Below are positions 6,921 through 56,796 of a DNA stretch of 64,000 nt, piece after piece. A program made the translations under genes and the position numbers. The stretch is from Haliotis rufescens (Eukaryota), in assembly GCF_023055435.1 (NCBI RefSeq), contig NW_025963813.1, positions 38,502,001-38,566,000 on the forward strand. Direction: 5' to 3'. Each line of letters opens with the position of its first letter. Positions within the stretch are counted from its first letter, which is position 1. The notes beneath the pieces are model-generated. The model saw nothing but the letters and a program-made list of their open reading frames with translations, was not told the DNA's origin and made no database searches.

Positions 6921-9900
6921 TTACTCTCGCTGCAGCTGCCGGGGTGTCTCTTGACTTGATACCTGAATTATTGTCAGCTTTCTGCTTTCTGAAACCTTCA
7001 GCCGATTGACCAACTTCTTTTTCGTCTTCTTCGTGAGACGTATAAAGCTGTTCAAGTAAAAATAGAAGAACCTCTTGGCTTCCTCCCTTGCACGCTGAGT
7101 GCAGTGCAGTATTTCCATTTGGAGCCACCATGCCGACATTTGCTCCTTTTCCCGTCAAAACTCTCACGACATCCAGGTTTCCACTTTCACATGCTTCATG
7201 AAGAGGGAGTTGTCCATGCTTCGATATCATATTGACTGTGGCCCCTTTATCAAACAGCATCTTAACAACATCCAGATTCCCACTTTTACATGCAGCACAT
7301 ACTTCATCGCCACTAAGTTCTGCTCCTGCCACAAGTAAAGTCTTAACAATGTTCGCATGTCCAATTGTACATGCTTCATACAAAGGATTAAAATAGAAAT
7401 CGTGACCAGCAACATTTGCTCCTCCCTCCAGCAAAGCTTTCACAATGCCCTCCGTGCCTGTCCGACATGCCAAAACCAGAGATGCGTACGTACATTCACT
7501 ATCAACATCAACTCTATCCAGCACCAGTTTTACAATTTCTTCCTCTCCACTGAGACAAGCCGCAAATAGAGGAGACATATACTTATACTTATACTTATCC
7601 ACATAACCTACTGCTCCTCTATCCAGTAACAGTTTCACTACGCCCTTGTGACCAGACAGACACGCTTGATAAAGTGAAGTTTTTTTCATCTTATCTGTTA
7701 CATCAATATCTACACCCTTGTCAATCACATACTCCACAGCTGACACAAGACCATGTTTACACAGGTAATGCAGCACAGTTCTGTCATAGCTGTCCGATGC
7801 ATTCAGATCAGGAAGAAGGCGAAGTATCTGGCGTACAAAGTTACAATCTCCAGTCTCCGCTGCTATCATCAGCGGGGTCTGTTCAGGTTCTCCGTAGGTC
7901 GCATTGATGTCCAGTTTTACATGTTGTGTCAGATATGTCAGCACATTTCCTGCAGCATGTTTGCACACACCCAATAAGATCTCATCTATTTCTGACTGAT
8001 GCAGTGTAATGTTTCCCTTCTCCAGTATGTATTTCACCATGGTTGGGGATTTGTTGCTTGGCAGCAACTCCAAACAGGATGCTCGTGTTTTTCTATCAGT
8101 GTTCCTCAGAAATGTATTTACAGATATCTGATATTGTACTTTCAGTATGTTCATCAGTTTATCAATGAAATCAGGATCACAACAGATTTGGTGTGAGATT
8201 ACATATGCCAAGTTGCCCAGCTGAATCTCCATGGCAAATCTCTGCACCAAGTTGTCAATGCAGAAAAGTGGGATTTCTGCAACGAAACCTTGGTTTTCAA
8301 CAGTCCCATGCCTAAGTCGCTGGTTGATGAATGAGAGACTACAATTCTCAATGACAAATACTGGATCTTTTTCAGTCAGAAGAAATGCAACACTGTCATA
8401 GATTGATGGATGGTCAAACATGTATGTTCCATCTTCCAGCTTCAGATATGACCCAACAAGCTTATTGGCAGATGATACACAGTCATGCATCTTGTATTTG
8501 TCTTTATACAATTCAGACTGAGACACTTTACCATCTCCTTGGATCATTGCCTTCAGGAGTTGATGCTTTGATTTATTGTATATTAATTTCTGCAAAGTTT
8601 GGTTTAGAAATTCAAGAGGTCTTGTGAAAAACTCCTTTGCTGATACCTTGGCATTCTGTTTAAAGGCTGTGGCAAAAAGTCTACAGACATGTGGAAACCC
8701 ATGTGGACACGCGATGTAGCTTAATTCAAACATGACCTTTTTCTCAATGTCAACACCTTCCTTTCGAAAAACTGATTTCAAAATATTCAGTTTTTCTTCA
8801 CGATCTATGGTTGGTGAGAGTTCCACTAGATGTTTACTGCTTGTAAGATATTCTCTCGCTCTTCCAAGGTCTGGTAAAGAGGATTTAAGTACATAATCAC
8901 GACCTACAAGAATAAATAAAGATTGTTTCTTTTCATTTTGCTCTGGATTGATGGCAGTTGACTTATTCAAAGCACCATTTAGATCCAAGTCAGGCTTTGG
9001 CAAATCAAGAATCGGACGAAGAGAGGGTCTCCATTTGGTCCACTCTGCAACGTCAAATTCCAGATCACCAAATATATCATCCATCATAATCACTGGGTTG
9101 GTACAAGTCCTGGTGACCTCATTGAACTCGTCTGGGGACACAACTTGGTATACTTGTCTCCCTTGGCTGTGCAGATCTCTGAGGGCCATGTAGGCCACTG
9201 TAGACTTCCCCTCTCCTGGTCTTCCCTTTATTGTCACCCATGTTGCTCCTCTGTCAATCTTCTCCATCACCTCCTTATGTGCCTGTGTCGTAACCATACC
9301 TTGGGTCCATGACTGTATCCTTGATTCTGTTCGTTCTGAAAAAAATATAATAAAATTGATTGAACTGTACAAATCCGATCCTTCTTTCACACATACTGAC
9401 CTAGTGTTATTGTTACAAGCAACCTCTCCTTAATGTATAAATACATTTCACATTTGCTCCACATGATAATAAATTATTAAAACTAAGAACTGATCACTGT
9501 GATATATATCAGTAAATGAGCTGAGAAATTGTGTTAACAAATCTGAGAGTTAATATTTTTGGCTATTGAAAAGTAAATTTGTAAAACAACATCGCAAAGA
9601 ATAAGAACTTTTTCTTAACACAAAACTTGTTAACAAATTAAGCATGCCATTAATGGTCATATTGTTTTACATTGACATCCGTTATCTACTTTTACTATCA
9701 TTTTCATGTTAACTTCTACGTTCGATAATGTAATGGCTCAGAATTGTGGAAATAGTACCTGATGAAGATATGGAACACGTTTCAAGAAAATTAAAAGTAT
9801 CATCTACTATATAGTGCATAGATATTATATTGCAGAAGATGCACGTAGCGTAAGTCTCTTGTCCCTGTTTCTGCATATACCTCTTGCATCAATGTATTGA

Positions 9901-16626: not shown

Positions 16627-19600
16627 ATGGCTTTGCTAGGCCGTCTGCTATTTTTGACCGTGGCTTTATTCCCTGATTCTCGGGGATTAAATGTCAATAT
16701 CTACATCGACACCAGCGTTGTCCTCAACAGAGTTCAGGACAACTTTGTTGGCGTCACCCTCGACTCCGGCATTATTCAAACTGGTTTGGAAAAGAGTGGT
16801 CTCAACTTGTCGTGAGTTTTCTTTTTTTTCTCAAGTTGGCTGAATATGCGTCCTTAGTGGTCCACTTTCGCCTTGCAGAATTGTGTGTTCGATGTTTTTA
16901 TTATCATTGACATGGCACAATGAAGGTCACAAAAACACCTGAGCTCATTCTATCATGGATGGGTGCTTACTCTCTGCATCAAACTGGAGTTTCTCGAAAT
17001 ATTAACCTGAGAAGCTGTAGTACTCGTATCAGCGNNNNNNNNNNNNNNNNNNNNNNNNNNNNNNNNNNNNNNNNNNNNNNNNNNNNNNNNNNNNNNNNNN
17101 NNNNNNNNNNNNNNNNNNNNNNNNNNNNNNNNNNNNNNNNNNNNNNNNNNNNNNNNNNNNNNNNNNNNNNNNNNNNNNNNNNNNNNNNNNNNNNNNNNNN
17201 NNNNNNNNNNNNNNNNNNNNNNNNNNNNNNNNNNNNNNNNNNNNNNNNNNNNNNNNNNNNNNNNNNNNNNNNNNNNNNNNNNNNNNNNNNNNNNNGCCAA
17301 TTGTTTGTGCAATTCAAGGTATGTTAATGACATTTCAACTAAAGTTCGAATGGCTTTCTCACATATCATTTTCACCTCTAATCGAGTCGTTTCTTAATCC
17401 ATGCTATTTTCAATAAGATCACCCAAATTGCTTAATCTGGCTGGGGGCTTCCAACCGAACATCCTTAGAATCGGCGGAACTGCCGAAGATGGCATTTCCT
17501 TTGACCCGAATAACGTCACAGAAAACAACCAGGGGGATCTTTCAGGTATATATTTCTCCTTCTTATTTATCTTTGAGATCAGGTTAACATATTCGAAACA
17601 AAATATTTCAGTTGTTTGTTTATTTGTTTGCACTCAACAGCATTCCAGCTATATGACGTCAGTCTGTAAATAATCGAGTGTGGACCAGGCAATCCAGTGA
17701 GTAAGATCATAAACATCGACCTTTGCAAATGCGATACGATGACATGCAATCAACCAAGTCAGTTAGGCCGAAACCTGATCCATTTGTCACCTCTTACAAG
17801 TAGTGGTTGTTGGGGACTTACATTATTCTTACCTGGGCCCATCAACCCGCAACCAAACTGGAAGAACACCTCTAACGCATCAAGGAAGATTATTTCCAAT
17901 TTTTGTACTGAATTCCAAGCTCCATAAAAATCCGTACAAAGTTATTGCTGGGTCCAGCAAATGTACTATCATCCAGAAAAAAAGCAAGAAATTAATTTCT
18001 TTAAATTCATAGAAAGTATTGGAGATAAATGGATTAAATATCATGATGATTCTCAAAATTGCAAATGGTTCGCTTATTTTGTTTCTAATCTCAGAAAAGA
18101 CCCAATGTCATTTATGTCCAAATGTTGTTTTTTTATTTTTGTTCACCACGGATCCACATGGCAATCTTAATGAAAAACTTCATACTTTGATCCAAACGTG
18201 ATGGCCATTCATATAGTTACATTTCTCTTCAAGGTTTATCGAGAAAACAATGTGTGATATGATGGAGTCTGGACCAGACAATCCAGTGACTGACATCACG
18301 AGGAAAAGATCTACGCTTTTGAGATCCGATGACATGCATCAACCAAGTCAGCGAGCCAGTTGCTCTCTTATGAACATATGTATATGTTTTTCCAGCTTCT
18401 GTTTGGGATGAAATCAACGCTTTCACATCCCTTGTTGGATGGGATCTGATATTTGGCCTAAATGTCCTTGAAAGACGAGATGGGCAGTGGGACCCTACCA
18501 ACGCTGAGCTATTCCTAAATTACACATCCAAGAAAGGATATCAATTATATGGCCTAGAACTTGGCAACGGTAGGTGGGGCATAAGAGTGGTAAGGTTCAC
18601 GAGTAAGTGAGTTGGGTTTAACGCCGTTTTAAACATTATTCCAGTTATATCACGGCGTGTTAGCTTAATATGGGAGGAAACACTGAAGTGATGCAGGTCT
18701 CAGACCTTTACCAGTTCAGTGAAACCCACGAGCACGGGTATGGTGCTGACAAACCCAGAAACATAATCAGGGCGAACCTTGATTCGAACCCACAATCATA
18801 GGTTTCTGGCGTGCCCAAGGGACGCAACTCTGCACAGCGAATCGTGGCGCCTCAGACGACTGGGCCACCCGTGCCCCCCGGTAAGGTTCAGGACGAAGAG
18901 AAGCACAAACCATACTGTAAATCTTACCGGAGAATGTCATGTAAACAACATACATGTGTGGACCCTCTGCATGCCAATAAATGGTTAGGGGATTGATTGT
19001 GATTAACGTGGTTTGAAATCCGTTCATGGTGTCACCTTCCATAAGATGACAGGAATAGTGCTGACGGACGCATGAAACCATCCCCACTCACTGGTTCATT
19101 CAGGACTATGAAATAGGATCTCAAAATCCTGCTCTCTAAATATGTTTCATATTTCTATTTATTTCTTGCAGTCTATTTGAAATTTAACAGTCATATTCAT
19201 GTTTCGTGGCTTTTCTGCGAGTTTGATGTGGGTATTGTGTAAGTTTTTATTCAAATGAGTTTGATATTGGATCTGTGGTATCTTAGACTAGTCACTTTCC
19301 TAGAGCCTCGGATGTTCCCCAAAAACTTTAACCAGTCAGTGTCGGCCCGGCAACTTGGAAAGGATTTTGGAACACTAGAGAAGGTGCTCAGAGATCGGCC
19401 ACACTTCAACAACACTCGAATTCTAGGGCCAGATGTTGCGGGCATTTTATCAAACGCTACCATCTCATATGTGGAAGAGTGAGTTTGTTTTCAAAGATTC
19501 AGTGTAAAATATCTTTGTGTGGATGGACGTTAATTTAACATGGTGCATTTAAACAGCAAGCACACACCACTGCCCCATGCAATGATAATGTCTATTGGAA

Positions 19601-22600
19601 GGAGAGCGGGGGTGGCTGTTTCGGTCCACTGATCGCGGCACACCAAATTGACGGTAAGAAGATAGTACTTGTTGTTACCCTGCCTGGTGATAGGCATTAA
19701 GGGGATCGAACAAGAACTGGCCTGATGGAAGAGTAATATTTCACCCGACCACATCTTATTCGAAATATGCAATACCACATGACCGTTTTGTGTATTGAAA
19801 GATTATAATCATTTTTAAAGGGATAGGAAAACTAAAATCTAACTATGTTGAGTGTATATGTTTTAGTATTTCTATAATTAACAATCATAATCCATATATA
19901 TTTATAATAGCAGTATTGGTTCCTTGAAGGAATATGGATCTTACAAATAACAATGACAATTGTATCTGTCGTCAACTTTCTCATTGAAAAATGGAGTGAG
20001 TGAGTGAGTGTTGTTTTACGCCGCTTTTAGCAATATTCCAGCAATATTACAGCGGGGAACACCAGAAATGGGTTTCACACATTGTACCCATGTCGGGAAT
20101 GGAACCCGGGTTTTCGGCGTGACGAGCGAACGCTTTAACCACTAGGCTACCCGACCGCCCCTTGATATATGGAAACGAATGCTCCTTATACATTGCTTTT
20201 TGGTATTTTTGTAAATATCTCACATCTGTTGTTTTTTTAATTTCGCATTTAAGGTTTTTAGCTGCAGGCGGAGCCAGTGCACTGGATGGCGTAACATTCC
20301 ACCAGTGAGTATGAATAAAGTCGATGTTGTCATCAGCTCATTAAATGTTTGTTTGATGTATCCAAACCCCTTTTGCAGTCAGCCGTAACTGCCTACGAGA
20401 TGCGTGTTGGGATTGGTAAAAGAAAACGTTGTATGTCATGCAAAATATGAAATACATTACGATATTGAAGGACAAAACACTCAGGTTATTTGCCACTAAT
20501 GAATGTATACATACACAAGTCTATGGCACATGTTTCTTGTATATGTACAATTGACTCCTTAAAAGGAAACATACACTTGTACGTGACCCATGTTCCTTGT
20601 ATTTGTCTGTATAAACGACTCTTTAAAAGGAAACATACTCGTGTACGTGACACATGTTCCTTGTATTTGTCTGTATAAACGACTCCTTAAAAGGAAACAT
20701 ACTCGTGTACGTGACACATGTTCCTTGTTTTTGTCTGTATAAACGACTCCTTAAAAGGACACATACTCGTGTACGTGACACATGTTCCTTGTATTTGTCT
20801 GTATAAACGACTCTTTAAAAGGAAACATACTCGTGTACGTGACACATGTTCCTTGTATTTGTCTGTATGAACGACTCCTTAAAAGGAAACATACTCGTGT
20901 ACGTGACACATGTTCCTTGTATTTGTCTGTATAAACGACTCTTTAAAAGGAAACATTCTCGTGTACGTGACACATGTTCCTTGTATTTGTCTGTATAAAC
21001 GACTCCTTAAAAGGAAACATACTCGTGTACGTGACACATGTTCCTTGTATTTGTCTGTATAAACGACTCTTTAAAAGGAAACATTCTCGTGTACGTGACA
21101 CATCTCACTTGAATGTGTCTGTATAAACGACTCCTTCGTATGAAAATACCTACTTTATGCGAATATATTTTTTGAGGTGTATTGTACTGAAAGAAAACAA
21201 GGGTGTCGTCTGTTATTAAATGTCATGGTCATTGTGTAACAACTTACTAAATCATGGGGGCACGGGTGGCCCAGTCGTCTAAGGCACCGCGATTCGCTGT
21301 GCAGAGTTGCGTCCCTTGGGCACGCCAGAAACCTATGATCGTGGTTTCGAATCCCGGTTCGCCCCCATTATGTTTCTAGGTTTGTCTGCACCATACCCGT
21401 GCTCGTGGGTTTCACCGAAGTTGTAAAAGTCTGAGACCTGCATCACTTCGGGCTTTCCTCCCACATTAAGCTGACACGCCGTGATACAACTGGAATACTG
21501 TTAAAAGCGGCGTTTAGCCCAACTCACTCACTCACCCACTACTAAATCATGATTGTAGTTTAAAGTCGATGAATGTAATATATACTCCCCCTTACGGTAG
21601 TACAAACGAGTGATTTATTCACAGTAAGTAAAGTAAACACCCTGCTTCCTTCTGCTTGTTTGAGTTTTATACTTTCAGTGATACAAGCACACTGACTTTT
21701 TATTATCTCAAGGTATTTCGGAAATGGGGACAATGCAACCAAAGAGATGTTTACAGACCCAACCTTCATGGATACACTGAATGCTTCCTTTGCGTCTGCA
21801 CACAAGGCTACAGGAGCGTTGGCGTCCAACAAACCTCTTCTCCTGGGCGAAACAGGTTCCTTTTACCATGGCGGAGTGCTGAACATGACGGACACCTTTC
21901 TGGGGGGATTTTTGTGGGTATTTCAGACAATAGTCACGAACAGCTTCACAGTTGGGTCACCCGTGAAGATCCGGGGTAGAATAGGTCTGCAGCAACCCAT
22001 GCTTGCCGTAAAAGGCGACTAACGGGATCGGGTGGTCAGACTCGCTGACTTGGATGATCAGTGGATTGTCTGGTCCAGACTCGATTATTTACAGACCGCC
22101 GTCATATAGCTGGAATATTGCTGAGTGAGGCGTTTAACAACAACCCAACCAACCATCCAACAAACCAACCAACCAACCAACCAATCAACCAACAACAGTT
22201 TGGTACTGTTTGACCCTGTCCATCATTATCGAAACGTATAGAAGGATATGCATTTTCATTTGCTGTGACATCTAGCCATGCTTCACGTACAGAATATCTG
22301 TACCTTCTTGCTGAAAACGATTCCACTCCATGAGTCTCCAGCGCATATCATGAAGGTGATTGAGATCTATGTGTTAATGTTCACCTATAGATGGATGGAC
22401 AAGCTCGGCATGGCCGCCCAATCAGGCATTCAGAATGTGTTCAGGCAGGACTTGTATGGACTTGGATCAGCCAATCGCCTGTTGGAGTCATTCACATACG
22501 ACCCCCTACCGGTGTGTATACATTACATGTGCTTCAATTACGACGGGCTTTTTCTAGAGGTAGGAACTTTGGGTTATTCACACACACACACAAACACGCA

Positions 22601-22601
22601 C

Positions 22602-22649
<48 letters not shown>

Positions 22650-24933
22650 ATGCTAGTCGGGATTTGTGGGATAGCCTAATGGTTAAAGCGTTCGCTTGTC
22701 ACGCCGTGCTCTGGTTCGACTCCCTACGTGGGGACGTTTGTGTCAATCCCATTGCTGGTGTCCACTGCCGTGACATTTCTGGATTATTGCTTAAAGCTGC
22801 GTAAAAAATCTTACTCACGTACTCACTGGTGTGTTTGACTTCGACATGAATTCACCTGACATGAAATACATTTCAAAGCTGTGTTACTCACAACACACAG
22901 CATCTTATCGCATCTCAGTTGCGTGGCTCCATGCTCTTGATGCTAATCACCGGATTGTCAGGGGTAAACTCGATTAGTCAACAAGCAAAAAATTATCATT
23001 GTATAACACCTAATTTCTGTTTTGGTAGGACTACTGGTTAACCTTTCTCTTCAAGAAGCTTGTGGGCAACGCCGTGTTCAAGCCTAGAGTCGTGGGCCCG
23101 CCCACCGTAAGAGCGTACTGCCACTGCATGAGGTCCATAAAGTAATTATGATGAATCTTTTTGTTATCACAAGTATTCAGCACAGGAATACCGAACATCA
23201 TTTGGGAAGGTTCTTGTTTGAAATCCAAAACATTGCTAGTATTTAAATTAATGAATATCATCTGGTTACATTACCAATGATTGTACTATTGGATGTTAGA
23301 AGCAGTGACAGGGCACAGTGAAGGCAACAACTACAGGAGAAAATAAGTCCACGTGTTCATCTCAGGTTTGTTTGAGTGTCAACGATTGAAAATCAGTAGA
23401 ACATAAAGTCTCGTGGGAGAAGACAAGCAATAATAGAACAATGATAAAATGTTGTTTTACCTTTTAGTCCATATTACTATCCACGTGGGAGAAAGACAAG
23501 CAATAATAGAACAATGATAAAATGTTGTTTTACCTTTCAGTCCATATTACTATTCACGTGGGAGAAAGACAAGCAATAATAGAACAATAATATAATGTTG
23601 TTTTACCTTTCAGTCCATATTACTATCCACGTGGGAGAAATACAAGCAATAACAGAACAATAGTATAATGTTGTTTTACCTTTCAGTCCATATTACTATC
23701 CACGTGGGAGAAAGACAAGCAATAATAGAACAATAATAAAATGTTGTGTTACATTTCAGTCCATATTACTATCCACGTGGGAGAAAGACAAGCAATAATA
23801 GAACAATAATATAATGTTGTGTTACATTTCAGTCCATAAATAATAAAATGTTGTGTTACATTTCAGTCCATATTACTATCCACGTGGGAGTCTGACTGTG
23901 TTTGCCATGAACCTGGACACTGTTGCAGTGAACTTGACTTTCCCAGAATACAAAGGCGGATACATGGACTACTTCCTGTTGTCACCAGAAGGAGGTGATG
24001 TTCAGTCGAGGTATGACATCCTCGCCAAATAATTTGTTTTATATGCTGGCATCCGTATTCGTTTAATGTACAAGAGCAGCTAATTTTCTGAGGGGATGAA
24101 GATAAAGACAAACACATAGTGAAATACAGCTTTGTTCCTGGTTTCGGCAGTTTTCACTTATTTTAACTATTGGTTTGTTCTTAGGTCATGAGGGGCGGTC
24201 GGGTAGCCTAGTGGTTAAAGCGTTCGCTCGTCACGCCGAAGACCCGGGTTCGATTCCCGACATTGGTACAATGTGTGAAGCCCATTTCTGGTGTTCCCCG
24301 CCGTGATATTGCTGGGATATTGCTAAAAGCGGCGTAAAACCATACTCACTCACTCACTCACTCTTTGGTCATGCTAGACGTACACACATACAACTGGAAG
24401 GGGAAAAGGCTCTGATAAATTCATATTAACATTTTAGTATTTTCGTATATCCAGGGTTCGCCATTCCCAGTGGGTGAAAATGATCCTTAACGTACCTCCC
24501 TATTTATCACTGGATTGTCTTGTCCAGACTCGATTATTTACAGACCGCCGTCATATAGCTGGAATATTGCTAAGTGCGGCGTTAAACAACAAACCAACCA
24601 GCCCACCTAAACATAGCCCATTAAGTAATTTCTCAGAAATATACAGACCTTGTGTTACACGTGGAATGGCATTACTAAAGAGAACCCACATCATGTAATG
24701 ACACAAAATCTCTCTATCCCCGAGAACATGTACTGAACGGCTACTGAGACATATCTTTTGTCTCTTGCAGAACTGTGATCCTCAACGGCCACCAGCCTAT
24801 CCATCTGGTTGAAAACGAGATACCCTTTCTGGTTCCTGGTGGTGTCAGCGCAAACACCATCACCCTTCCCTCGCTCACATACGGATTCTTTGTACTTTAC
24901 GCTGACGCCCGTGTTTGTAAACCTGGCAACTAG
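16627..24933 (+). CDS. HPSE-like: Heparanase-like GH79 glycoside hydrolase, secreted, 484 aa. Exons 16627-16811, 17418-17545, 18396-18569, 19304-19478, 20254-20304, 21713-21913, 22391-22511, 23029-23141, 23867-24010, 24771-24933
   Basis: Signal-peptide-like start; motifs VGVTLDS, LRIGGT, LIFGLN, ELGNEP (acid/base Glu, split by an intron), GPDV, LLGETGS (nucleophile Glu), WMDKLG, PLPDYW, YCHC, LPSLTYGFFV; all introns GT-AG and phase-consistent, total 1455 nt; exon 8 donor could alternatively be at 23132. Confidence 0.92.
17035..17295. other. N run (others at 49187-49356 and 54484-54624)
   Basis: Runs of n; all lie within heparanase introns. Confidence 0.99.
18600..18879 (-). mobile_element. 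tRNA-derived SINE, family 2 (tRNA-Leu-like head; matching copy ~50639-50913)
   Basis: 11-bp TSD ggtaaggttca at 18589-18599 and 18880-18890; reverse complement of 21256-21539. Confidence 0.85.
19995..20161 (-). mobile_element. SINE family 1, full length (matching copy at 52056-52222)
   Basis: Reverse complement of 200-368; imperfect TSD ttgaaaaatgga/ttgatatatgga. Confidence 0.88.
20550..21137. repeat. 64-bp intronic minisatellite, ~9 units (~7 units at 52614-53070)
   Basis: Period 64 (20629, 20693, 20757, 20821). Confidence 0.95.
21256..21539 (+). mobile_element. SINE family 2 (matching copy ~53195-53469)
   Basis: Head gtggcccagtcgtctaaggc, B box ttcgaatccc, (ACTC)n tail, TSD tactaaatcatg. 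Confidence 0.85.
21955..22195 (+). mobile_element. SINE-like interspersed repeat with (CAAC)n tail (matching copy ~53875-54115; fragments at 16350, 17610, 18255, 24505, 28500)
   Basis: Shared block ggattgtctggtccagactcgattatttacagaccgccgtcatatagctggaatattgctgagtg occurs on both strands. Confidence 0.75.
22579..22650. repeat. (CA)n microsatellite
   Basis: Direct reading. Confidence 0.97.
22655..22826 (+). mobile_element. SINE family 1, diverged copy (matching copy ~54765-54929)
   Basis: gatagcctaatggttaaagcgttcgc...ggttcgactcc...aaagctgcgtaaaa...actcac. Confidence 0.75.
23412..23890 (+). repeat. 73-bp minisatellite made of the heparanase intron 8/exon 9 junction (also 55492-55937)
   Basis: Unit = 49 nt of intron end (...ttttacctttcag) + the first 24 nt of exon 9 (tccatattactatccacgtgggag). 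Confidence 0.93.
24192..24361 (+). mobile_element. SINE family 1, specific to copy A
   Basis: TSD tcttaggtcatg/tctttggtcatg; empty site at ~56225-56236 in copy B. Confidence 0.9.
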
Positions 24934-33299: not shown

Positions 33300-36200
33300 T
33301 GTGACGTCTGTGTTATTATTTCCATTTATATGAACTCCGGTAACATATCAAAACATCATTTCCATTCGCTTTTCGATGCTCATGAAGAGGTACGTAACCA
33401 GTGCACAACCTTTTGACACCCACGCATAATGTTCCAAGAAGCAGTGTGGCCCCATTGTTATTCTGTACATTCACAATAGCTCCAGCCCTCAGTAACATAT
33501 CAACACACTTTTGAGAACCACTCTTTAATGCAGAGTGGTGTGTCGCTTGTGTTGCGTAAGTTAACAACAGCTCTGATATTCAATAACATAATAAATCTCT
33601 TTCGATCTACGCATTACTGCTCCATGGAGAAGTGTGGCTCCCTTGTCATTCTGTACATACACATCAGCTCCAACCGTCAGTAACAGGTCAACACACTCTT
33701 TCCATCGTGACATTGATGCGCCATGAAGTGGTGTGTTGCCTGTGTTATTCCGTACATTCACACCAGCTCCAGGATCCAGTAATATATGAACACACTCTTT
33801 CGATCCATGCATTGATTCACCATGTACTGGTGTGTCGCCCGCACTGTCTCTTCGTGTACATGAGCTTAAAGCTTCAATAACACATCAACAAACAATTACC
33901 ACCCATGCATTGATATTCCATGTAGTGATGTGTCTTCCGTACTATTCTCTACATTTACATAAGTTCCAGCCATCAGTAAAACATCAACATACTATTTCGA
34001 CCCATGCATTATAACTCCATGTAGTGGTGTGTCGTCCGTACTGTCTTTATGTTTACATCAGCTCCAACCTTCAATTATAACAGATTAACACACTCTTTCG
34101 TAGACGCATTGATCCTCCATAAGTGGTGTGTCGCCTGTGTTATTCTCTACATTCACTGCAGCACCAGCCTTCAGTAACAGTTCAACACACTCTTTCGATC
34201 CATGGATTGATGCTGCATGAAGTGGTGTGTCGCCTGAGTTGTTTTGTACTTTTATATCAGCGCCAGCCTTCAGTAACATATCAACACACTTTTGAGATCC
34301 ACGCCTTGATGCTCTATGAAGTGAAGTGTCGCCTGTTTTATTCTCAACATTCACATCAGCTGCAACCTTCAGTAAAATATCAACCCACGTTTGAGATCTA
34401 CACCCTGATGCCTGTCTCGTTTTGTGCTATGAGTTATGAAGTGGTGTGTCGCCCGATCTATTCGGTACCTGTATATCAGCCCAAGCCTTCAGTAACAGGT
34501 CAACACAGTCTTTCGATCCATGGATTGATGCTGCATGGAGTGCCGTGTAGCCTGAACAACACACTTTTGAGATCCACACCTGGATGCTTCATGAAGTGGA
34601 GTGTCGCCTGTCTCGTTTCGTACTTTAACATCAGCTCCAGCCTTCAGTAACATATCAACACACTTTTGAGATCCAAACATTGATGCGATATGAAGTGGTG
34701 TGTCGCCTGCTCTATTCTGTACCTGTATGTCAGCCACAGCCTCCAGCAACAGGTTAACACAGTCTTTAGATCCATACATTGATGCTGCATTGAGTGCTGT
34801 GTAGCCTGAGTTGTTTTGTACTTTTACATCAGCCCCAGCCTTCAGTAACAGGTAAACACACTTTTTCGATCCATGGATTGATGCTGCATGGAGTGCTGTG
34901 TAGCCTGAGTTGTTTTGTACTTTTACATCAGCCCCAGCCTTCAGTAACAGATCAACACACTTTTGAAATCCACACCTGGATGCTTCATGAAGTGGAGTGT
35001 CGCCTGTCTCGTTTTGTACTTTTACATCAGCCCCAGCCTTCAGTAACAGATCAACACATTGTCAGATCCACATCTCGATGCTTCATGAAGTGGAGTGTCG
35101 CCTGTCTCGTTTTGTACTTGTACATCAGCCCCAGCCTTCAGTAACAGATCAACACACTTTTGAGATCAACACCTGGATGCTTCAGGAAGTGGAGTGTCGC
35201 CCGTCTCCTTTTGTACTTTTACATCAGCTCCAGCCTTCAGTAACAGATCAACAAACTTTTGAGATCGATACCTCAATACTTTATGAAGTGGTGTGTCGCC
35301 TGTTCTATTCTGTACCTGTATATCAGCCCCTGCCTTCAGTAACAGGTCAACACACTCTTTCGATCCATACATTAATGTTCTACAGAGTGGCGCGAGTCCT
35401 ATCTGATCCCCGACATTCAGGCCAGCCTTCTGTAACAGGTAAATACGCTCTTCCAATCCGAGCCCTAATACGTTATGAAGTGGAGTGTCGCCTGCCTCGT
35501 TTTGTACTTTAACATCAGCTCCAGCCTTCAGTAACATATCAACACACTTTTCAGATCTGCACATTGATGCGTTATGAAGTGGTGTTTCGCCTGTCTTGTT
35601 TTGTACTTTTACATCAGCTCCAGCCTTCAGTAACAGGTCAACACACTTATGAGATCCACATCTGGATGCTTCATGAAGTGGAGAGTAGCCTGTCTTGTTT
35701 TGTACTTTTACATCAGCCCCAGCCTTCAGTAACATATCAACACATTTTTGAGATCCACATCTGGATGCATCATGAAGTGGAGTGTCGCCTCTCTCGTTTT
35801 GTACTTTCACATCAGCCCCAGCCTCCAGTAACAGATCAACACACTTTTGAGATCCGCACATTGATGCTGCATGGAGTGCTGTGTAGCCTGATTTGTTTTG
35901 TACTTTTACATCAGCCCCAGCCTTTAGTAACAGATCAACACACTTTTGAGATCCGCACATTGATGCTGCATGGAGTGCTGTGTAGCCTGATTTGTTTTGT
36001 ACTTTTACATCAGCCCCAGCCTTCAGTAACAGATCGACACACTTTTGAGATCCACACCTGGATGCTTCATGAAGTGGAGTGTAGCTTGTCTCGTTTTGTA
36101 CTTTTACATCAGCCCCAGCATTCAGTAACAGGTCAACACACTTTTCAGATCCACACCTGGATGCTTTATGAAGTGGAGTGTCGCCTGTCTCGTTTTGTAC

Positions 36201-36422
36201 TTTTACATCAGCCCCAGCCTTCAGTAACAGATCAACACACCTTTCAGATCCACACCTGGATGCTTCATGAAGTGAAGTGTCGCCTGTCTCGTTTTGTACT
36301 TTTACATCAGCCCCAACCTTCAGTAACAGGTCAACACACTTTTGAGATCCAAATATTGATGCTGCATGGAGTGCTGTGCAGCCTGATTTGGTTTGTACTT
36401 TTACATCAGCCCCAGCCTCCAG
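33300..36422 (-). pseudogene. Untranslated continuation of the ankyrin array downstream of the copy B stop (about 30 further repeats)
   Basis: TTA>TAA at 36423-36425; the same frame appears to stay open to GGA>TGA at 35166-35168; then frameshifted fragments 34489-34779, 34085-34354, 33561-33812, 33316-33567. Confidence 0.88.
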
Positions 36423-38080
36423 TTACAGATCAACACACTTTTCAGATCCACACCTGGATGCTTCATGAAGTGGAGTGTCGCTTGTCTCGTTTTGTACTTT
36501 TACATCAGCCCCAGCCTTCAGTAACAGGTCAACACACTTTTCAGATCCGCACATTGATGTTGCATGGAGTGCTGAGCAGCCTGATTTGTTTTGTACTTTT
36601 ACATCAGCCCAAGCCTTCAGTATCAGATCAACACACTTTTCAGATCCACACCTGGATGCTTCAAGAAGTGGAGTGTCGCCTGTCTCGTTTTGTACTTTTA
36701 CATCAGCCCCAGCCTTCAGTAACAGATCAACACACTTTTCAGATCCACACCTGGATGCTTCATGAAGTGGAGTGTCGCCTGTCTCGTTTTGTACTTTTAC
36801 ATCAGCTCCAGCCTGCAGTAACAGATCAACACACCTTTGACATCCATACCTCAATACTTTATGAAGTGGTGTGTCGCCTGTTCTATTCTGTACCTGTATA
36901 TCAGCCCCAGCCTTCAGTAACAGGTCAACACACTCTTTCGATCCATACATTGATACTCTATGGAGTGTCACGAGTCCTCTCTGATCCCCGACATTCAAGC
37001 CAGCCTTCCGAAACAGGTAAAAACGCTCTTCAGATCCGAGCCCTGATACGTTATGAAGTGGAGTATCGCCTGTCTCGTTTTGTACTTTAACATCAGCTCC
37101 AGCCTTCAGTAACATATCAACACAATTTTGAGATCTGCACATTGATGCGACATGAAGTGGTGTGTCGCCTGTTCTATTCTGTACCTGTATATCAGCCCCA
37201 GCCTTCAGTAACAGGTCAACACAGTCTTTAGATCCATACATTGATGCTGCATGGAGTGCTGTGTAGCCTGAGTTGTTTTGTACTCTAACATCAGCCCCAG
37301 CCTTCAGTAACAGGTAAACACTCTTTTGAGATCCGCACATTGATGCTGCATGGAGTGCTGTGCAGCCTGAGTCGTTTTGTACTTTTACATCAGCCCCAGC
37401 CTTCAGTAACAGATCAACACACTTTTGAGATCCAAACATTGATGCGTTATGAAGTGGTGTGTCGCCTGTCTCGTTTTGTACTTTTACATCAGCTCCAGCC
37501 TTCAGTAACAGGTCAACACACTTTTCAGATCCATACCTGGATGCGTTATGAAGTGGTGTGTCGCCTGTCTCGTTTTTTACTTTTACATCAGCTCCAGCCT
37601 TCAGTAACAGGTCAACACACTTCTGAGATCCATACCTCAATGCGGTATGAAGTGGAGTGTCGCCTGTCTCGTTTTGTACTTTTACATCAGCTCCAGCCTT
37701 CAATAACATATCAACACACTTTTGAGATCCAAACATTGATGCGATATGAAGTGGTGTGAAGCCTCGTCTATTCTGTGCCTGTACATCAGCCCCAGCCTTC
37801 AGTAACAGGTCAACACACTCGTTCGATGCATGGATTGATGCTCTATGGAGTGCTGTGTAGCTTGAGTTGTTTTGTACTTTTACATCAGCCCCAGCCTTCA
37901 GTAACAGATCAACACACTTTTCAGATCCACACCTTGATGCATCATGAAGTGGAGTGTCGGCTGTCTCGTTTTGTACTTTCACATCAGCTCCAGCCTTCAG
38001 TAACATATCAACACACTCTTTCGATCCATGGATTGATGCTACATGGAGTGCTGTGTTTCCTGTGTTATCCTCTATATTTA
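33450..38080 (-). repeat. 99-bp ankyrin-coding tandem array, copy B (~46-47 units, ~16 translated)
   Basis: Same 99-nt unit; 16 full repeats plus one partial counted in the 1370-aa ORF. Confidence 0.93.
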
Positions 38081-48776: not shown

Positions 48777-51700
48777 ATGGCTTTGCTAGGCCATCTGCTA
48801 TTTTTGAGCGTGGCTTTATTCCCTGATTCTCGGGGATTAAATGTCAATATCTACATCGACACCAACGTTGTCCTCAACAGAGTTCAGGACAACTTTGTTG
48901 GCGTCACCCTCGACTCCGGCATTATTCAAACTGGTTTGGAAAAGAGTGGTCTCAACTTGTCGTGAGTTTTCTTTTTTTCTCAAGTTAGCTGAATATGCGT
49001 CCTTAGTGGTCCACTTTCGCCTTGCAGAATTGTGTGTTCAATGTTTTTATTATCATTGATATGGCACAATGAAGGTCACAAAAACACCTGAGCTCATTCT
49101 ATCATGGGTAGGTGCTTACTCCCTGCATCAAACTGGAGTTTCTCGAAATATTAACCTGAGAAGCTGTTCTACTCGTATCAGCGATANNNNNNNNNNNNNN
49201 NNNNNNNNNNNNNNNNNNNNNNNNNNNNNNNNNNNNNNNNNNNNNNNNNNNNNNNNNNNNNNNNNNNNNNNNNNNNNNNNNNNNNNNNNNNNNNNNNNNN
49301 NNNNNNNNNNNNNNNNNNNNNNNNNNNNNNNNNNNNNNNNNNNNNNNNNNNNNNNNGCCAACTGTTTGTGCAATTCAAGGTATGTTAATGACATTTCAAC
49401 TAAAGTTCGAATGGCTTTCTCACATATCATTTTCACCTCTAATCGAGTCGTTTCTTAATCCATGCTATTTTCAATTAGATCACCCAAATTGCTTAATCTG
49501 GCTGGGGGCTTCCAACTGAACATCCTTAGAATCGGCGGAACTGCCGAAGATGACATTTCCTTTGACCCGAATAGCGTCACAGAAAACAACCAGGGGGATC
49601 TTTCAAGTATATATTTATTTATCTTTGAGATCAGGTTAAAATATTCGAAACTGGACAAAATATTTCAGTTGTTTGTTTATTTGTATGCACTCAACAGTAT
49701 TCCAGTTATATGACGTCAGTCTCTAAATAATCGAGTGTGGACCTGGCAGTCCAGTGAGTAACATCATGAACATCGACCTTTGCAACTGCGATACGATGAC
49801 ATGCAATCAACCAAGTCAGTTAGCCTGAAACCTGATCCATGTGTCACCTCTTACAAGTAGTGGTTGTTGGGGACTTATATTATTCTTACCTGGGCCCATC
49901 AACCCGCAACCAAACTGGAAGAACACCTCTAACACATCAAGGAAGATTATTTCCTGTTAAGTATTGAATTCCGAGCTCAATAACAATTTGTTCAAAGTTA
50001 TTGCTGGGTCCAGAAAATGTATTTTTATCCTGAATACAAGCAAGGAAGGCATTTCTTTATATTCATAGAAGGTATTGGAGATAAATGGATTTAATATCAT
50101 GATGATTCTCAAAATTGCAAATGGTTCGCTTATTTCTTTTCTTCATTAATGTTTTGGGTTTTTTTTTATTTTTGTTCACCGCGGATCCACATGACAACCT
50201 TAATAAAAAACTTTATTCTTTGTTTCAAACGTGATGGCCATTCACATAGTTACATCTCTCTACAAAGTTCACCGAGAAAACGATATGTGATATTATCGAG
50301 TCTGGACCAGACAATCTAGTGACTGACATCACGAGGAAAGTGGCATTTAACGATCTACGCTTTTTAAATCCGATGACATGCATCAACCAAGTCAGCGAGC
50401 CAATTGCTCTCTTATGAACATATGTTTTTCCAGCTTCTGTTTGGGATGAAATCAACGCTTTCACATCCCTTGTTGGATGGGATCTGATATTTGGCCTGAA
50501 TGTCCTTGAAAGACGAGATGGGCAGTGGGACCCTACCAACGCTGAGCTATTCCTAAATTACACATCCAAGAAAGGATATCAATTATATGGCCTAGAACTT
50601 GGCAACGGTAGGTGGGGCATAAGAGTGGGAAGGTTCACGAGTGAGGTTGGTTTAACGCCGTTTTAAACATTATTCCAGTTATATCACAGCGTGTTAGCTT
50701 AATATGGGAGGAAACCCCGAACTGATGCAGGTCTCAGACGTTTACCCGTTCAGTGAAACCCACGAGCACGGGTATGGTGCTGACAAACCCAGAAACATAA
50801 TCAGGGCGAACTTGGATTCGAACCCACAATCATAGGTTTCTGGCGTGCCCAAGGGACGCAGCTCTGCACAGCGAATCGTGGCGCCTCAGACGACTGGGCC
50901 ACCCATGCCCCCAGGTAAGGTTCAGGACGAAGAGAAGCACAAACGATACTGTAGATGTTACCGGAGAATGTCATGTAAACAGCATACATGTGTGGACCCT
51001 CTGCATGCCAAAAAAATGGTTAGGGGTTTGATTGTGATTAACGTGGTTTGATACCCGTTCATGGTGTCACCTTCCATGATATGACAGGAATAGTGCTGAC
51101 GGACGTATGAAACCATCCCCACTCACTAGTTCATTCAGGACTATGAAATAGGATCTCAAAATCCTGCTCTCTAAATATGTTTCATATTTCTTTTTATTCC
51201 TGGCAGTCTATTTAAAATTTAACAGTGATATTCATGTTTCGTGGCTTTTCTGCGAGTTTGATGTGGGTAATGTGTAAGTTTTTATTCAAATGAGTTTGAT
51301 ATTGGATCTGTGGTATCTTATATTGGTCACTTTCCTAGAGCCTCGGATGTTCCCCAAAAAGTTTAACCAGTCAGTGACGGCCCAGCAACTTGGAAAGGAT
51401 TTTGGAACACTAGACAAGGTGCTCAGAGATCGGCCACACTTCAACAACACTCGAATTCTAGGACCAGATGTTGCGGACATTTTATCAAACGATACCATCT
51501 CATATGTGGAAGAGTGAGTTTGTTTTCAAAGATTCAGTGTAAAATATCTTTATGTGGATGGACCTTAATTTAACATGGTGCATTTAAACAGCAAGCATAC
51601 ACTACTGCCCCATGCAACGATAACGTCTATTCGAAGGAGAGCGGGGGTGGCTGTTTCGGTCCACTGGTCGCAGCACGCCAAATTGACGGGAAGAAGATAT

Positions 51701-54700
51701 TACTTGTTGTTACCCTGCCTGGTGATAGGCATTAAGGGGATCGAAAAAGAACTGGCCTGCTGGAAAAGTAATATTTCACCCGACCACATCTTATTCGAAA
51801 TATGCAACACCACATGACCGTTTTGTGTATTGAAAATTTGTCTATCCTGTTTGGTGAAAAAGATTATAATCATTTTTGAAGGAATAGGAAAACTAAAATC
51901 TAACTATGTTGAGTGTATATTTTTTAGTATTTCTATAATTAACAATCATAATCCATATCTATTTATAATAGCAGTATTGGTTCCTTGAAGGAATATGGAT
52001 CTTACAAATAACAATGACAATTGTATCTGTCGTCAACTTTCTCATTGAAAAATGGTGTGAGTTAGTGAGTGTTGTTTTACGCCAATTTTAGCAATATTCA
52101 AGCAATATCACGGCGGGGAACACCAGAAATGGGCTTCACACATTGTACCCGTGTCGGGAATCTAACCCGGGTCTTCGGCGTGACGAGCGAACGCTTTAAC
52201 CACTAGGCTACCCGACTGCCCCTTGAAATATGGAAATGAACGCTCCTTATACATATGCTTCTTGGTATTTCTGTAAATATCTCACATCCGTTGTTTTTTT
52301 AATTTCGCATTTAAGGTTTTTAGCTGCAGGCGGAGCCAGTGCGCTGGATGGGGTAACGTTCCACCAGTGAGTATGAATACCATTAAAGTTGATGTTGTAA
52401 TCAGCTCATCAAATGATCGTTTGATGTATCTAAATCCCCTTTGCAGTCAACTGCTTACCAGATTCGTGTTGGGATTGGGAAAAGAAAACGTAATATGTCA
52501 TGCAAAATATGAAATACATTACGATATTGAAGGACAAAACACTCAGGTTATTCGCCACTAATGAATGCATACATACACAAGTCTATAGCACATGTTTCTT
52601 GTACATGTACAATTGACTCCTTAAAAGGAAACATACTCGTGTATGTGACACATGTTCCTTGTATTTGTCTGTATAAACGACTCCTTCAAAGGAAACCTAC
52701 TCGTGTACGTGACACATGTTCCTTGTATATGTCTGTATAAACGACTCCTTAAAAGGAAACCTACTCGTGGAAGTGGCACATGTTCCTTGTATTTGTCTGT
52801 ATAAACGACTCTTTAAAAGGAAACATACTCGTGTACGTGACACATGTTCCTTGTATTTGTCTGTATAAACGACTCCTTCAAAGGAAACATACTCGTGGAA
52901 GTGACACATGTTCCTTGTATTTGTCTGTATAAACGACTCCTTAAAAGGAAACATACTCGTGGAAGTGGCACATGTTCCTTGTATTTGTCTGTATAAACGA
53001 CTCTTTAAAAGGAAACGTACTCGGGGAAGTGACACATCTCACTTGAATGTGTCTGTATAAACGACTCCTTCGTATGAAAATACCTACTTTATGCGAATAT
53101 ATTTTTAAACAATGAGGTGTATTGTACTGAAAGAAAACAAGGGTGTCGTCTGTTATTAAATGTCACGGTCATTGTGTAAAAACTTACTAAATCATGGGGG
53201 CACGGGTGGTCCAGTCGTCTAAGGCGCCGCGATTCGCTGTGCAGAGTTGCGTCCCTTGGGCACGCCAGAAACCTATGATCCCGGTTCGCCCCCATTATGT
53301 TTCTAGGTTTGTCTGCACCATACCCGTGCTCGTGAGTTTCACCGAAGTTGTAAAAGTCTGAGACCTGCATCACTTGGGGCTTTCCTCCCACATTAAGCTG
53401 ACACGCCGTGAAACAACTGGAATACTGTTAAAAGCGGCGTTTAGCCCAACTCACTCACTCACCCACTACTAAATCATGATTTTAGTTTAAAGTCAATGAA
53501 TGTAATATATACTCCCCCTTACGGTAGTACAAACGAGTGATTTATTCACAGTAAGTAAAGTAAACACCTTCTTCCTTCTGCTTGTTTGAGTTTCATACTT
53601 TCAGTGATACAAGCACACTGACATTTTATTATCTCAAGGTATTTTGGAAATGGGGACAATGCAACCAAAGAGATGTTTACAGACCCAACCTTCATGGATA
53701 CACTGAATGCTTCATTTGCGTCTGCACACAAGGCTACAGGAGCGTTGGCGTCCAACAAACCTCTTCTCCTGGGCGAAACAGGTTCCTTTTATCATGGCGG
53801 AACATGACGGACACCTTTCTGGGGGGATTTTTGTGGGTATTTCAGACAATAGTCACGAACAGCTTCACAGTTGGGTGACCCGTGAAGATCCGGGGTAGAA
53901 TAGGTCTTCAGCAACCCATGCTTGCCGTAAAAGGCGACTAACGGGATCGGGTGGTCAGACTCGCTGACTTGGTTGATCACTGGATTGTCTGGCCCAGACT
54001 CGATTATTTACAGACCGCCGTCATATAGCTGGAACATTGCTGAGTGAGGCGTTAAACAACAACCCAACCAACCAACCAACAAACCAAGCAACCAACCAAC
54101 CAATCAACCAACAACAGTTTGGTACTGTTTGACCCTGTCCATCATTATCCAAATGTATAGAAGGATATGCATTTTCATTTGCTGTGATATCTAGCCATGC
54201 TTCACGTACAGAATATCTGTACCTTCTTGCTGAAGACGATTCCACTCCATGAGTCTCAAGCGCATATCATAAAGGTGATTGAGATCTATGTGTTAATGTT
54301 CACCTATAGAGGGATGGACAAGCTCGGCATGGCCGCCCAATGAGGCATTCAGAATGTGTTCAGGCAGGACTTGTATGGACTTGGGTCAGCCAATCGCCTG
54401 TTGGAGTCATTCACATACGACCCCCTACCGCTGTGTATACATTACATGTGCTTCAATTACGACGGGCTTTTTTTCTAGAGATANNNNNNNNNNNNNNNNN
54501 NNNNNNNNNNNNNNNNNNNNNNNNNNNNNNNNNNNNNNNNNNNNNNNNNNNNNNNNNNNNNNNNNNNNNNNNNNNNNNNNNNNNNNNNNNNNNNNNNNNN
54601 NNNNNNNNNNNNNNNNNNNNNNNNGTCCCTAGATGTTTCATAGATAATGCAATATACCTGTTCTCAAATATAGGCACCGACGGTGTAGTTGTCTAAAAGC

Positions 54701-56796
54701 AGTGCAGTTCGCTGTGCCAGAGTTGTGCGAGCATCCCAGATACCCGTGCTCATGCTAGTCGGGATTGGTGGGATAGCCTAATGGTTAAAGCGTTCTCTCG
54801 TCACGCCGAAGGCTCTGGTTCGACTCCCTACGTGGGGACGTTTGTGTCCATCCCATTTCGGTGTCCAACGCGTAAAATTTCTGGAATGTTGCTTAAAGCT
54901 GCGTAAAAATCTTACTCACGTACTCACTCGTGTGTTTCACTAAGACATGCATTCACCTGACATAAAATACAGTTCAAAGCTGTGTAAATCACAACACACT
55001 CACTTGACAGCATCTTATCGCATCTCAGTTTCGTGGTTCGATGCTCTTGATGCTGATCTCTGGATTGTCAGGTGCAAACTCGATTTATCAACAAGCAAAA
55101 AATGATCATTGTATAACACCTAATTTCCTTTTTGGTAGGACTACTGGTTAACCTTTCTCTTCAAGAAGCTTGTGGGCAACGCCGTGTTCAAGCCTCGAGT
55201 CGTGGGCCCGCCCACCGTAAGAGCGTACTGCCACTGCATGAGGTCCATAAAGTAATTATGATGAATCTTTTTGTTATCACAAGTGTTCTGCACAGGAATA
55301 ACGAACATCATTTGGGAAGGTTCTTGTTTGAAATCCAAAACATTGCTAGTATTTAAATTAATGAATATCATCTGGTTACATTACCAATGATTGTACTATT
55401 GGATGTTAGAAGCAGTGACAGGGCACACTCCACGTGTTCATCTCAGGTTTGTTTGAGTGTCAACGATTGAAAATCAGTAGAACAATAGTCTCGTGGGAGA
55501 AAGACAAGCAATAATAGAACAATAAGAAAATGGTGTTTTACCTTTCAGTTCATATTACTATCCACGTGGGAGAAAGACAAGCAATAATAGAACAATAATA
55601 AAATGGTGTTTTACCTTTCAGTCCATATTACTATCCACGTGGGAGAAAGACAAGCAATAAATGAACAATAATAAAATGGTGTTTTACCTTTCAGTCCATA
55701 TTACTATCCACGTGGGAGAAAGACAAGCAATAATAGAACAATAATAAAATGGTGTTTTACCTTTCAGTCCATATTACTATCCACGTGGGAGAAAGACAAG
55801 CAATAATAGAACAATAATAAAATGGTGTTTTACCTTTCAGTCCATATTACTATCCACGTGGGAGAAAGACAAGCAATAATAGAACAATAATAAAATGTTG
55901 TGTTACATTTCAGTCCATATTACTATCCACGTGGGAGTCTGACTGTGTTTGCAATGAACCTGGACATTGTTGCAGTGAACTTGACTTTCCCAGAATACAA
56001 AGGCGGATATATGGACTACTTCCTGTTGTCACCGGAAGGAGGTTGTGTTCAGTCGAGGTATGACATCCTAACAAATAATTTGTTTTATCTGTTGGCATCC
56101 GTGTTCGTTTAATGCACAAGAGCAGCTAATTTTCTGAGGGGATGAAGATAAAGACAAACACATAGTAAAAAACAGCTTTGTTCCTAGTTTCGGCAGTTTT
56201 CGCTTATTTTAACTATTGGTTTGTTCTTTGGTCATGCTAGACGTACACACATACAACTGGAAGGGGAAAAGGCTCCGATAAATTCATACTAATATTTTAG
56301 TATTTTCGTACATCTAGGGTTCGCCATTCCCAGTGGGTGAAAAAGATCCTTAACGTACCTCCCTATTTATCACTGGATTGTCTTGTCCAGACTCGATTAT
56401 TTACAGACCGCCGTCATATAGCTGGAATATTGCTGAGTGAGGCGTTAAACAACAAACCAACCAGCACACCTAAACATAGCCCATTAAGTAATTTCTTAGA
56501 AATATACAGACCTTGTGTTACACGTGGAATGGCATTACTAAAGAGAACCCACATCATGTAATGACACAAAATCTCTCTATCCCCGAGAACATGTACTGAA
56601 AGGCTACTGAGACATATCTTTTGTCTCTTGCAGAACTGTGATCCTCAACGGCCACCAGCCTATCCATCTGGTTGAAAACGAGATACCCTTTCTGGTTCCT
56701 GGTGGTGTCAGCGCAAACACCATCACCCTCCCCTCGCTCACATACGGATTCTTTGTACTTTACGCTGACGCCCGTGTTTGTAAACCTGGCAACTAG
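48777..56796 (+). pseudogene. HPSE-like: Heparanase-like pseudogene, copy B. Exons 48777-48961, 49479-49606, 50434-50607, 51339-51513, 52316-52366, 53639-53832, 54310-54430, 55139-55251, 55914-56057, 56634-56796
   Basis: Homologous to copy A, with a 7-bp deletion in exon 6 (~53800), W>G in WMDKLG, TCA>TGA at 54341-54343, and exon 7 donor GT>CT at 54431. Confidence 0.9.

What the first reader, a model, noticed from the sequence alone, without database searches (positions are those of the whole stretch)
23412..23890. A minisatellite built from a 3' splice site: tandem decoy acceptors in front of heparanase exon 9
Seen: the 73-bp unit is the intron end plus the first 24 nt of the exon. This gives AG acceptors at 23467, 23540, 23613, 23686, 23759 and 23832 before the productive one at 23866 (B: five decoys at 55548-55840, productive at 55913). 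An 8-nt microhomology (cgtgggag) in both intron and exon explains its origin by slippage. As 73 is not a multiple of 3 and the units contain stops, upstream acceptors give frameshifts or premature stops. The array is in both copies, so it predates the duplication, yet copy A still has an intact ORF. Inference: a copy-number-dependent splicing/NMD rheostat, or an unexplained preference for the most distal acceptor.
Basis: partly seen in the sequence, partly recalled or inferred. Interest (0 to 1): 0.72.

Follow-up and report, generated by a model that had tools for sequence, protein, structure and literature searches.

The report
Splice-acceptor "mirage" in heparanase-like gene
A 73-base piece spanning the end of an intron and the start of the next exon has been copied head to tail in front of exon 9 of a heparanase-like gene, but the assembled transcripts seen use only the last, real copy, so it is most likely harmless clutter of a kind already described in lancelets and humans.

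Summary
The array is real and every coordinate is right: a 73-bp unit (49 nt intron end plus 24 nt of exon 9) gives six decoy acceptors in copy A and five in copy B. It occurs at four loci of a large GH79 heparanase-like cluster. A, D and E have intact ORFs (6, 5, 4 decoys); B is a pseudogene. In 6 of 6 RNA-like runs laid, the only exon 8 junction goes to the last acceptor (23141→23867); a DNA run lacks it. Contigs drop rare forms, so minor leakage is not excluded. Decoys are not weakened and show no special conservation. An unrelated 47-bp acceptor array lies in a paralog about 75 kb away. This is a known kind: amphioxus "mirages", human CBS 844ins68, and the donor-side F7 VNTR. This scan has noted eight similar cases on other genomes. 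Most likely a tolerated slippage or unequal-crossover product, resolved by pairing across the exon with NMD removing leaks (both inferred). The rheostat is not supported.

The parts
16627..24933 (+). GH79 heparanase-like gene, copy A: 10 exons (16627-16811, 17418-17545, 18396-18569, 19304-19478, 20254-20304, 21713-21913, 22391-22511, 23029-23141, 23867-24010, 24771-24933), intact 484-aa ORF
   Evidence: Model with GT-AG at all nine introns and no internal stop; PF03662 E=6.6e-11 on exon 3; heparanase structures E=2.7e-9 (exon 3) and 8.8e-6 (exon 6)
23029..23141 (+). Exon 8; donor at 23142 (phase 2)
23412..23890 (+). Junction-spanning minisatellite ('mirage'): 73-bp units of 49 nt intron end plus 24 nt exon 9 start, bounded by an 8-nt direct repeat
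23466..23832 (+). Six decoy AG acceptors (G at 23467, 23540, 23613, 23686, 23759, 23832); each would give a premature stop
   Evidence: no contig joins exon 8 to any of them
23805..23872 (+). Second, 34-bp duplication of the acceptor (28 nt intron plus 6 nt exon), only in copy A
23867..24010 (+). Exon 9 (144 nt) from the used acceptor at 23866
   Evidence: joint 23141→23867, GT..AG, in 6 of 6 RNA-like runs
48777..56796 (+). Copy B, pseudogene: 7-bp deletion in exon 6, TGA in exon 7, exon 7 donor GT changed to CT
   Evidence: exon-by-exon alignment
55492..55937 (+). The same array in copy B: five decoys (55548-55840) and the last acceptor at 55913

Best explanation
This is a tandem repeat that spans the intron 8/exon 9 acceptor (a 'mirage'); assembled transcripts use only the last acceptor, and the array is likely a tolerated by-product of slippage or unequal crossing-over with no regulatory job. 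Shown: the anatomy, 4-6 decoys per paralog, and splicing to the last AG. Inferred origin: one 73-bp duplication between the 8-nt direct repeats, then ordinary minisatellite turnover. Inferred choice of site: both flanking introns are longer than 250 nt, so exon 9 is probably recognised across the exon. The last AG gives a 144-nt exon in its normal sequence context; the decoys give 178-543 nt and are followed by A-rich intron sequence after 24 nt. Each unit carries its own branch-point-like TAAT about 26 nt upstream, so the last unit is self-sufficient. Inferred clean-up: any leak in copy A has a premature stop and would be removed by NMD.
For: 6 of 6 RNA-like runs laid (6 studies, 4 organism labels) show one unbroken contig exon 8→23867→exon 10; DNA run X17 lacks the joint. 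No contig lies on any decoy in X1, X2, X4, X7, X8. X1 matches copy A at all exon 8 sites; X2 has 4 exon 8 differences, and the 3 displayed are copy E's. Three paralogs keep intact ORFs with 6, 5 and 4 decoys, and the pseudogene keeps 5 intact. Variable columns are spread evenly: 12 of 49 intron, 5 of 24 exon, 4 of 14 acceptor core. Eight older-paralog loci have the same intron with one acceptor. An unrelated 47-bp acceptor array with 7 decoys sits in another paralog; arrays of period 25 or more cover 5% of 180 kb of the cluster. Published precedents.
Against: All RNA evidence is from Logan contigs, which drop rare forms; NMD would hide leaks; array size in those individuals is unknown. Decoys look at least as strong as the used site (10 of 12 pyrimidines in 17 of 20 decoys, 8 of 12 in 4 of 4 used sites), so site strength does not explain the choice. 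For 3' sites the human survey reports only that upstream preference is reduced, not reversed, under exon definition. Intron 8 sequence appears in 2 of 6 RNA-like runs (depth 3.8 vs 29.7 spliced in X2; 4.57 vs 65.4 in X5). X5 has array contigs; a rough budget fits unspliced molecules with 5-7 units but allows roughly 11-14% decoy-spliced RNA with 3 units each, or about 30% with 1 unit each.
Confidence: 0.8

Rival explanations
1. Copy-number rheostat: each extra unit diverts some pre-mRNA to a decoy or delays intron 8 removal, NMD destroys it, and unit number tunes enzyme dosage among paralogs.
For: 20 of 20 decoy AGs intact and mostly pyrimidine-richer than the used site; 6 of 6 decoys in A give premature stops; unit number differs among intact paralogs; intron 8 contigs in 2 of 6 RNA-like runs. 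In human CBS intron 13 and 6-16, two donor-side pseudo-sites are used (PMC1557585 introduction).
Against: No decoy junction in 6 of 6 runs. Intact AGs are expected by chance (rough P=0.59) and are as intact in the pseudogene. X5's only unique-flank contig runs from the intron into the array, so it is unspliced there.
Confidence: 0.1
2. Active silencing of the decoys: the duplication created a local element (for example the G-run plus A-rich join at each unit boundary) that represses every upstream acceptor, as G runs do in CBS 844ins68. The array is still neutral, but the reason for distal choice differs.
For: In CBS, G runs between the duplicated sites promote the distal one (PMC1802585 passage). 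Each unit here has a GGG followed by intron sequence only at decoys. The decoys are not weaker.
Against: Only one GGG per unit, also present in the real exon. A's last decoy (23832) lacks it and is still unused. The unrelated 47-bp array has a different sequence and the same layout. No binding data.
Confidence: 0.07
3. Assembly artefact: the array or the paralogs are mis-assembled or are uncollapsed haplotypes.
For: The cluster is made of large near-identical blocks; B and D arrays differ at one site.
Against: Units carry distinct diagnostic variants; gene bodies differ by 3.5-6%; DNA run X17 and RNA-like run X5 both hold array contigs joined to the unique flank. X17 may or may not be independent of the assembled sample.
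Confidence: 0.03

Closest known systems
Amphioxus 'mirages' (Adh3, globins BflGb6/BflGb9, troponin C, PGBD5); PMC3087553 and PMC3902484, passages read
   Same: Minisatellite-like tandem copies of an intron/exon boundary; BflGb6 copies the 3' end of an intron plus the exon start (6 and 3 units in two haplotypes); many units keep the splice signal; splicing reported normal; boundary units escape homogenisation.
   Different: Different animal and gene family; 73-bp unit (10-72 bp Adh3, 150-160 bp BflGb6); here the array is spread over four paralogs and carries a nested 34-bp duplication.
Human CBS 844ins68; PMC2630376 and PMC1802585, passages read (Romano et al. 2002 not read, seen only as cited)
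   Same: [quoted passage not shown]
   Different: One extra site, not 4-6; G runs were shown to drive the choice there, untested here.
Human F7 IVS7 37-bp VNTR, also LMNB2, PDGF, CBS IVS13, 6-16; PMC1557585, abstract and introduction read
   Same: Minisatellite whose edge unit spans an exon border; identical pseudo-sites stay silent (F7, LMNB2, PDGF); the site nearest the exon body is used.
   Different: Donor side, not acceptor side; in CBS IVS13 and 6-16 two pseudo-sites are also used.
Variable internal tandem repeats in human segmental duplications; PMC2812944, passages read
   Same: Repeat-number differences at exon-intron boundaries among young paralogs.
   Different: There many cases give alternative transcripts or new introns; none seen here.

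Membership tests
Mirage (junction-spanning minisatellite) | Tandem units that span an intron/exon boundary of the host gene | tested here: met
   49 nt intron plus 24 nt exon per unit
Mirage (junction-spanning minisatellite) | Units keep the splice signal | tested here: met
   20 of 20 decoy AGs intact in four loci
Mirage (junction-spanning minisatellite) | Regular splicing to the authentic site is not disturbed | tested here: met
   Only joint 23141→23867 in 6 of 6 RNA-like runs; holds for the main transcript only, contigs drop rare forms
Mirage (junction-spanning minisatellite) | Unit number is unstable | tested here: inconclusive
   4, 5, 5, 6 decoys among paralogs; allelic or somatic variation cannot be read from contigs
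Mirage (junction-spanning minisatellite) | Inner units homogenised, boundary unit distinct | tested here: met
   The last unit has the same variant acceptor (G at -12, A at -7) in 4 of 4 loci; only 2 of 20 decoys share both changes
Regulated unproductive splicing (AS-NMD rheostat) | Alternative site puts a stop well upstream of the last junction | tested here: met
   6 of 6 in A, 4 of 4 in E, 4 of 5 in D; D's nearest decoy stops 42 nt past the last junction. The 50-55 nt NMD rule is recalled and mammalian
Regulated unproductive splicing (AS-NMD rheostat) | The alternative site is measurably used | tested here: not met
   0 of 6 runs show a decoy junction; low-level use cannot be seen in contigs
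Regulated unproductive splicing (AS-NMD rheostat) | Selective constraint on the regulatory sequence | tested here: inconclusive
   No excess conservation of the acceptor core, 4 of 14 vs 17 of 73 variable columns; units are young and not independent
Regulated unproductive splicing (AS-NMD rheostat) | Output depends on unit number or condition | not testable with these tools
   No raw mRNA reads or genotypes were offered
GH79 heparanase-like | GH79 domain with both catalytic glutamate motifs | tested here: met
   PF03662; ELGN and GET motifs align with heparanase chains; their catalytic role is recalled
GH79 heparanase-like | Heparan sulfate as substrate | not testable with these tools
   Exon 9 is closer to a hyaluronoglucuronidase (7eyo, E=1e-4) than to heparanase (E=0.25)

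The most novel reading that the evidence does not exclude
The array is a working dosage dial in a roughly 40-gene glycosidase cluster: each added unit slows intron 8 removal or leaks to a decoy, so paralogs with 4, 5 and 6 decoys are expressed at graded levels. In copy D the nearest decoy would also give an NMD-escaping 468-aa isoform with a new C-terminus, an outlet that A (34-bp duplication) and E (in-frame stop) have separately closed.
Probability: 0.1. Interest if true: 0.55.

Novelty: new member of a known kind. Interest (0 to 1): 0.2.

Why it matters
As it stands it matters little: it is one more mirage. Its use is as a natural series: three intact paralogs with 4, 5 and 6 near-identical acceptors, plus an independent 47-bp case nearby, could test why the spliceosome passes equal or stronger upstream 3' sites. 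The papers read dissect this for donor-side arrays (F7) and cite it for one two-site acceptor case (CBS). If output scaled with unit number, it would be a fast-mutating dial on gene dosage in an expanding enzyme family.

Tried and rejected
I laid 6 of the 14 'RNA?' holders and 1 of 6 unlabelled DNA-sized runs. 2) The first lay was swamped by SINEs in intron 9, with 154 joints not displayed; depth over the decoys was still zero in X1, X2, X4, and the second lay avoided the SINEs. 3) No cover on the unique parts of intron 9 in the RNA-like runs: a hole in contigs proves nothing, so it is not used as evidence. 4) RNA structure as the reason for distal choice: predicted unpaired fraction at the used acceptor (0.49, 0.59, 0.54 in A, D, E) is not clearly set apart from the decoys (0.38-0.59); rejected. 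5) Weaker decoys: rejected. 6) Dispersed element as source of the unit: the pattern has 17 matches, all in the four loci. 7) A single-unit ancestor: copy C (C35 39.33 Mb) diverges just before the array and has no exon 9 or 10 in the 20 kb fetched; older paralogs are too diverged. 8) Pfam on three short peptides found nothing, one being in the wrong frame; redone. 9) A paper search on heparanase expansion in molluscs gave only listings, none read. No splice-site scoring model was available; strength is a plain pyrimidine count.

Full report
Observation. TRF gives period 73 at 23412-23838 and 55492-55937 and a period-34 duplication at 23805-23872. All 13 acceptor positions listed match. Each unit is 49 nt of intron 8 ending in YAG plus the first 24 nt of exon 9, and the array starts and ends on the same 8 nt.

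Host gene. Copy A has ten exons, nine GT-AG introns and an intact 484-aa ORF. Exon 3 matches GH79 (PF03662, E=6.6e-11); exons 3 and 6 match heparanase structures; exon 9 best matches a hyaluronoglucuronidase. So it is GH79 heparanase-like, substrate unknown. An exon 9 search of the own genome gives 41 matches, 39 of them between 38.17 and 40.42 Mb of contig C35. Earlier AI notes call this genome an abalone; I did not check that.

Copies. The unit occurs at four loci only: A, B, D (39.83 Mb) and E (40.41 Mb), with 6, 5, 5 and 4 decoys. D and E have intact ORFs. B has a 7-bp deletion in exon 6, a stop in exon 7 and a lost exon 7 donor. A fifth close copy, C, has a frameshift in exon 4 and no exon 9-10 in the stretch fetched. 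Gene bodies are 93.7-96.6% identical; B and D share a 29-bp intron 8 deletion and near-identical arrays although their bodies do not group, which points to conversion or unequal crossing-over.

What decoy use would give. In A all 6 decoys give stops 171-431 nt before the last junction, with exons of 178-543 nt against 144. In E, 4 of 4 do. In D, 4 of 5 do; the nearest gives a frameshift that stops 42 nt into the last exon (468 aa).

What RNA shows. No holder was on record as RNA, but the six 'RNA?' runs laid are spliced: each has one contig running exon 8, exon 9 from 23867, exon 10 (six studies, four organism labels). The joint is GT..AG, skips 725 nt, and is absent from DNA run X17. In X1, X2, X4, X7 and X8 nothing lies on the decoys. 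X1 has no difference from copy A in exon 8; X2 has four, the three displayed being E's. X5 has array contigs at depth 3.6-13 against 65.4 spliced, one of them joined to unique intron upstream of the first AG. A rough k-mer budget fits unspliced molecules of 5-7 units, but could allow 11-14% decoy-spliced RNA at three units each, or about 30% at one unit each. X2 has a unique intron 8 contig at 3.8 against 29.7. Limits: contigs drop rare forms, NMD would deplete them, and array size in these animals is unknown.

Selection. All 20 decoy AGs are intact, but 17 of 73 columns vary, evenly over the unit, so this is expected. Decoys are pyrimidine-richer than the used site in 18 of 20 cases. There is no sign of selection to weaken or to keep them.

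Base rate. Eight older-paralog loci have the same intron with one acceptor. In 180 kb of the cluster, arrays of period 25 or more cover 5%; of 80 exon-like hits, two overlapped an array, one a weak spurious hit (E=0.018, dropped) and one real. That one is a 47-bp unit (36 nt intron plus 11 nt of exon 3) in 8 copies; all 7 decoys lead to an immediate stop and only the last keeps the frame. A random 73-bp duplication in gene A would include an acceptor about 8% of the time. Such events recur here.

Mechanism. Inferred: a duplication between the 8-nt repeats, then minisatellite turnover with the last unit left out of homogenisation. Intron 8 is at least 326 nt and intron 9 is 760 nt, above the roughly 250-nt limit for intron definition given in PMC9225289 (abstract, section 9 and passages read). 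Pairing across the exon favours the AG nearest the exon 9 donor. That survey is human and finds upstream 3' preference reduced, not reversed, so exon context probably contributes too. Each unit has a TAAT about 26 nt before the AG and an AG-free zone of 21-32 nt. Predicted folding does not single out the last site.

Known kinds. Amphioxus mirages are the same thing, with normal splicing reported (PMC3087553, PMC3902484, passages). CBS 844ins68 duplicates a 3' site over 68 bp and the distal one is favoured (PMC2630376, PMC1802585, passages). F7 and others are the donor-side mirror (PMC1557585, abstract and introduction). PMC2812944 and PMC10078293 (passages) show that repeats near junctions can affect splicing, which keeps the rheostat possible. 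The term 'mirage' and its link to these papers came from this scan's earlier notes, which list eight similar cases on other genomes; I checked the two papers myself. Supplements were not read; they are unlikely to change the classification. I make no claim that this locus is unpublished: none of my five answered paper searches or targeted it by gene name and species.

Verdict. Real, correctly described, a new member of a known kind, most likely neutral (0.8). Rheostat about 0.1. Interest 0.2.

Noticed in passing
L056:6482-6858 (G000:C35:38451482-38451858, + strand): Independent acceptor mirage in a distant GH79 paralog: 47-bp unit, 8 copies, 7 decoys before exon 3, each followed by an immediate stop; the last unit again has a variant acceptor. 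Splicing not checked.
   Followed up: partly
G000:C35:38.17-40.42 Mb: About 39 GH79 heparanase-like exon 9 matches in about 2.2 Mb, apparently three repeated blocks; a large expansion of a family that is small in vertebrates (recalled). Possibly more interesting than the array; no description found in one paper search.
   Followed up: partly
window 4900-9330 (- strand) and about 33400-40900: Long exon encoding a P-loop (GRPGEGKST) domain followed by ankyrin repeats; its tail is a 99-bp tandem array (20 units in the first copy, about 54 in the second). In the first copy the frame hits a stop partway through the array.
   Followed up: no
L009 (copy D, C35 39.83 Mb): Nearest decoy would give a 468-aa protein with a new C-terminus and a stop in the last exon; A and E have closed this route in different ways.
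   Followed up: partly
window 20553-21136 and 52615-53070; L037/L038: Other intronic minisatellites in the family: a 64-bp array in intron 5 (9 and 7 units) and a 48-bp array in intron 8 of a distant paralog that stops about 140 nt short of the acceptor.
   Followed up: no
L007 (copy C, C35 39.33 Mb): Copy with an exon 4 frameshift, an insertion just before where the array would start, and no exons 9-10 in the stretch fetched.
   Followed up: partly
run X5 on window 23362-23829: A run with a different organism label from the DNA holders also carries the array, so it may be older than one species, if the labels are true species.
   Followed up: no
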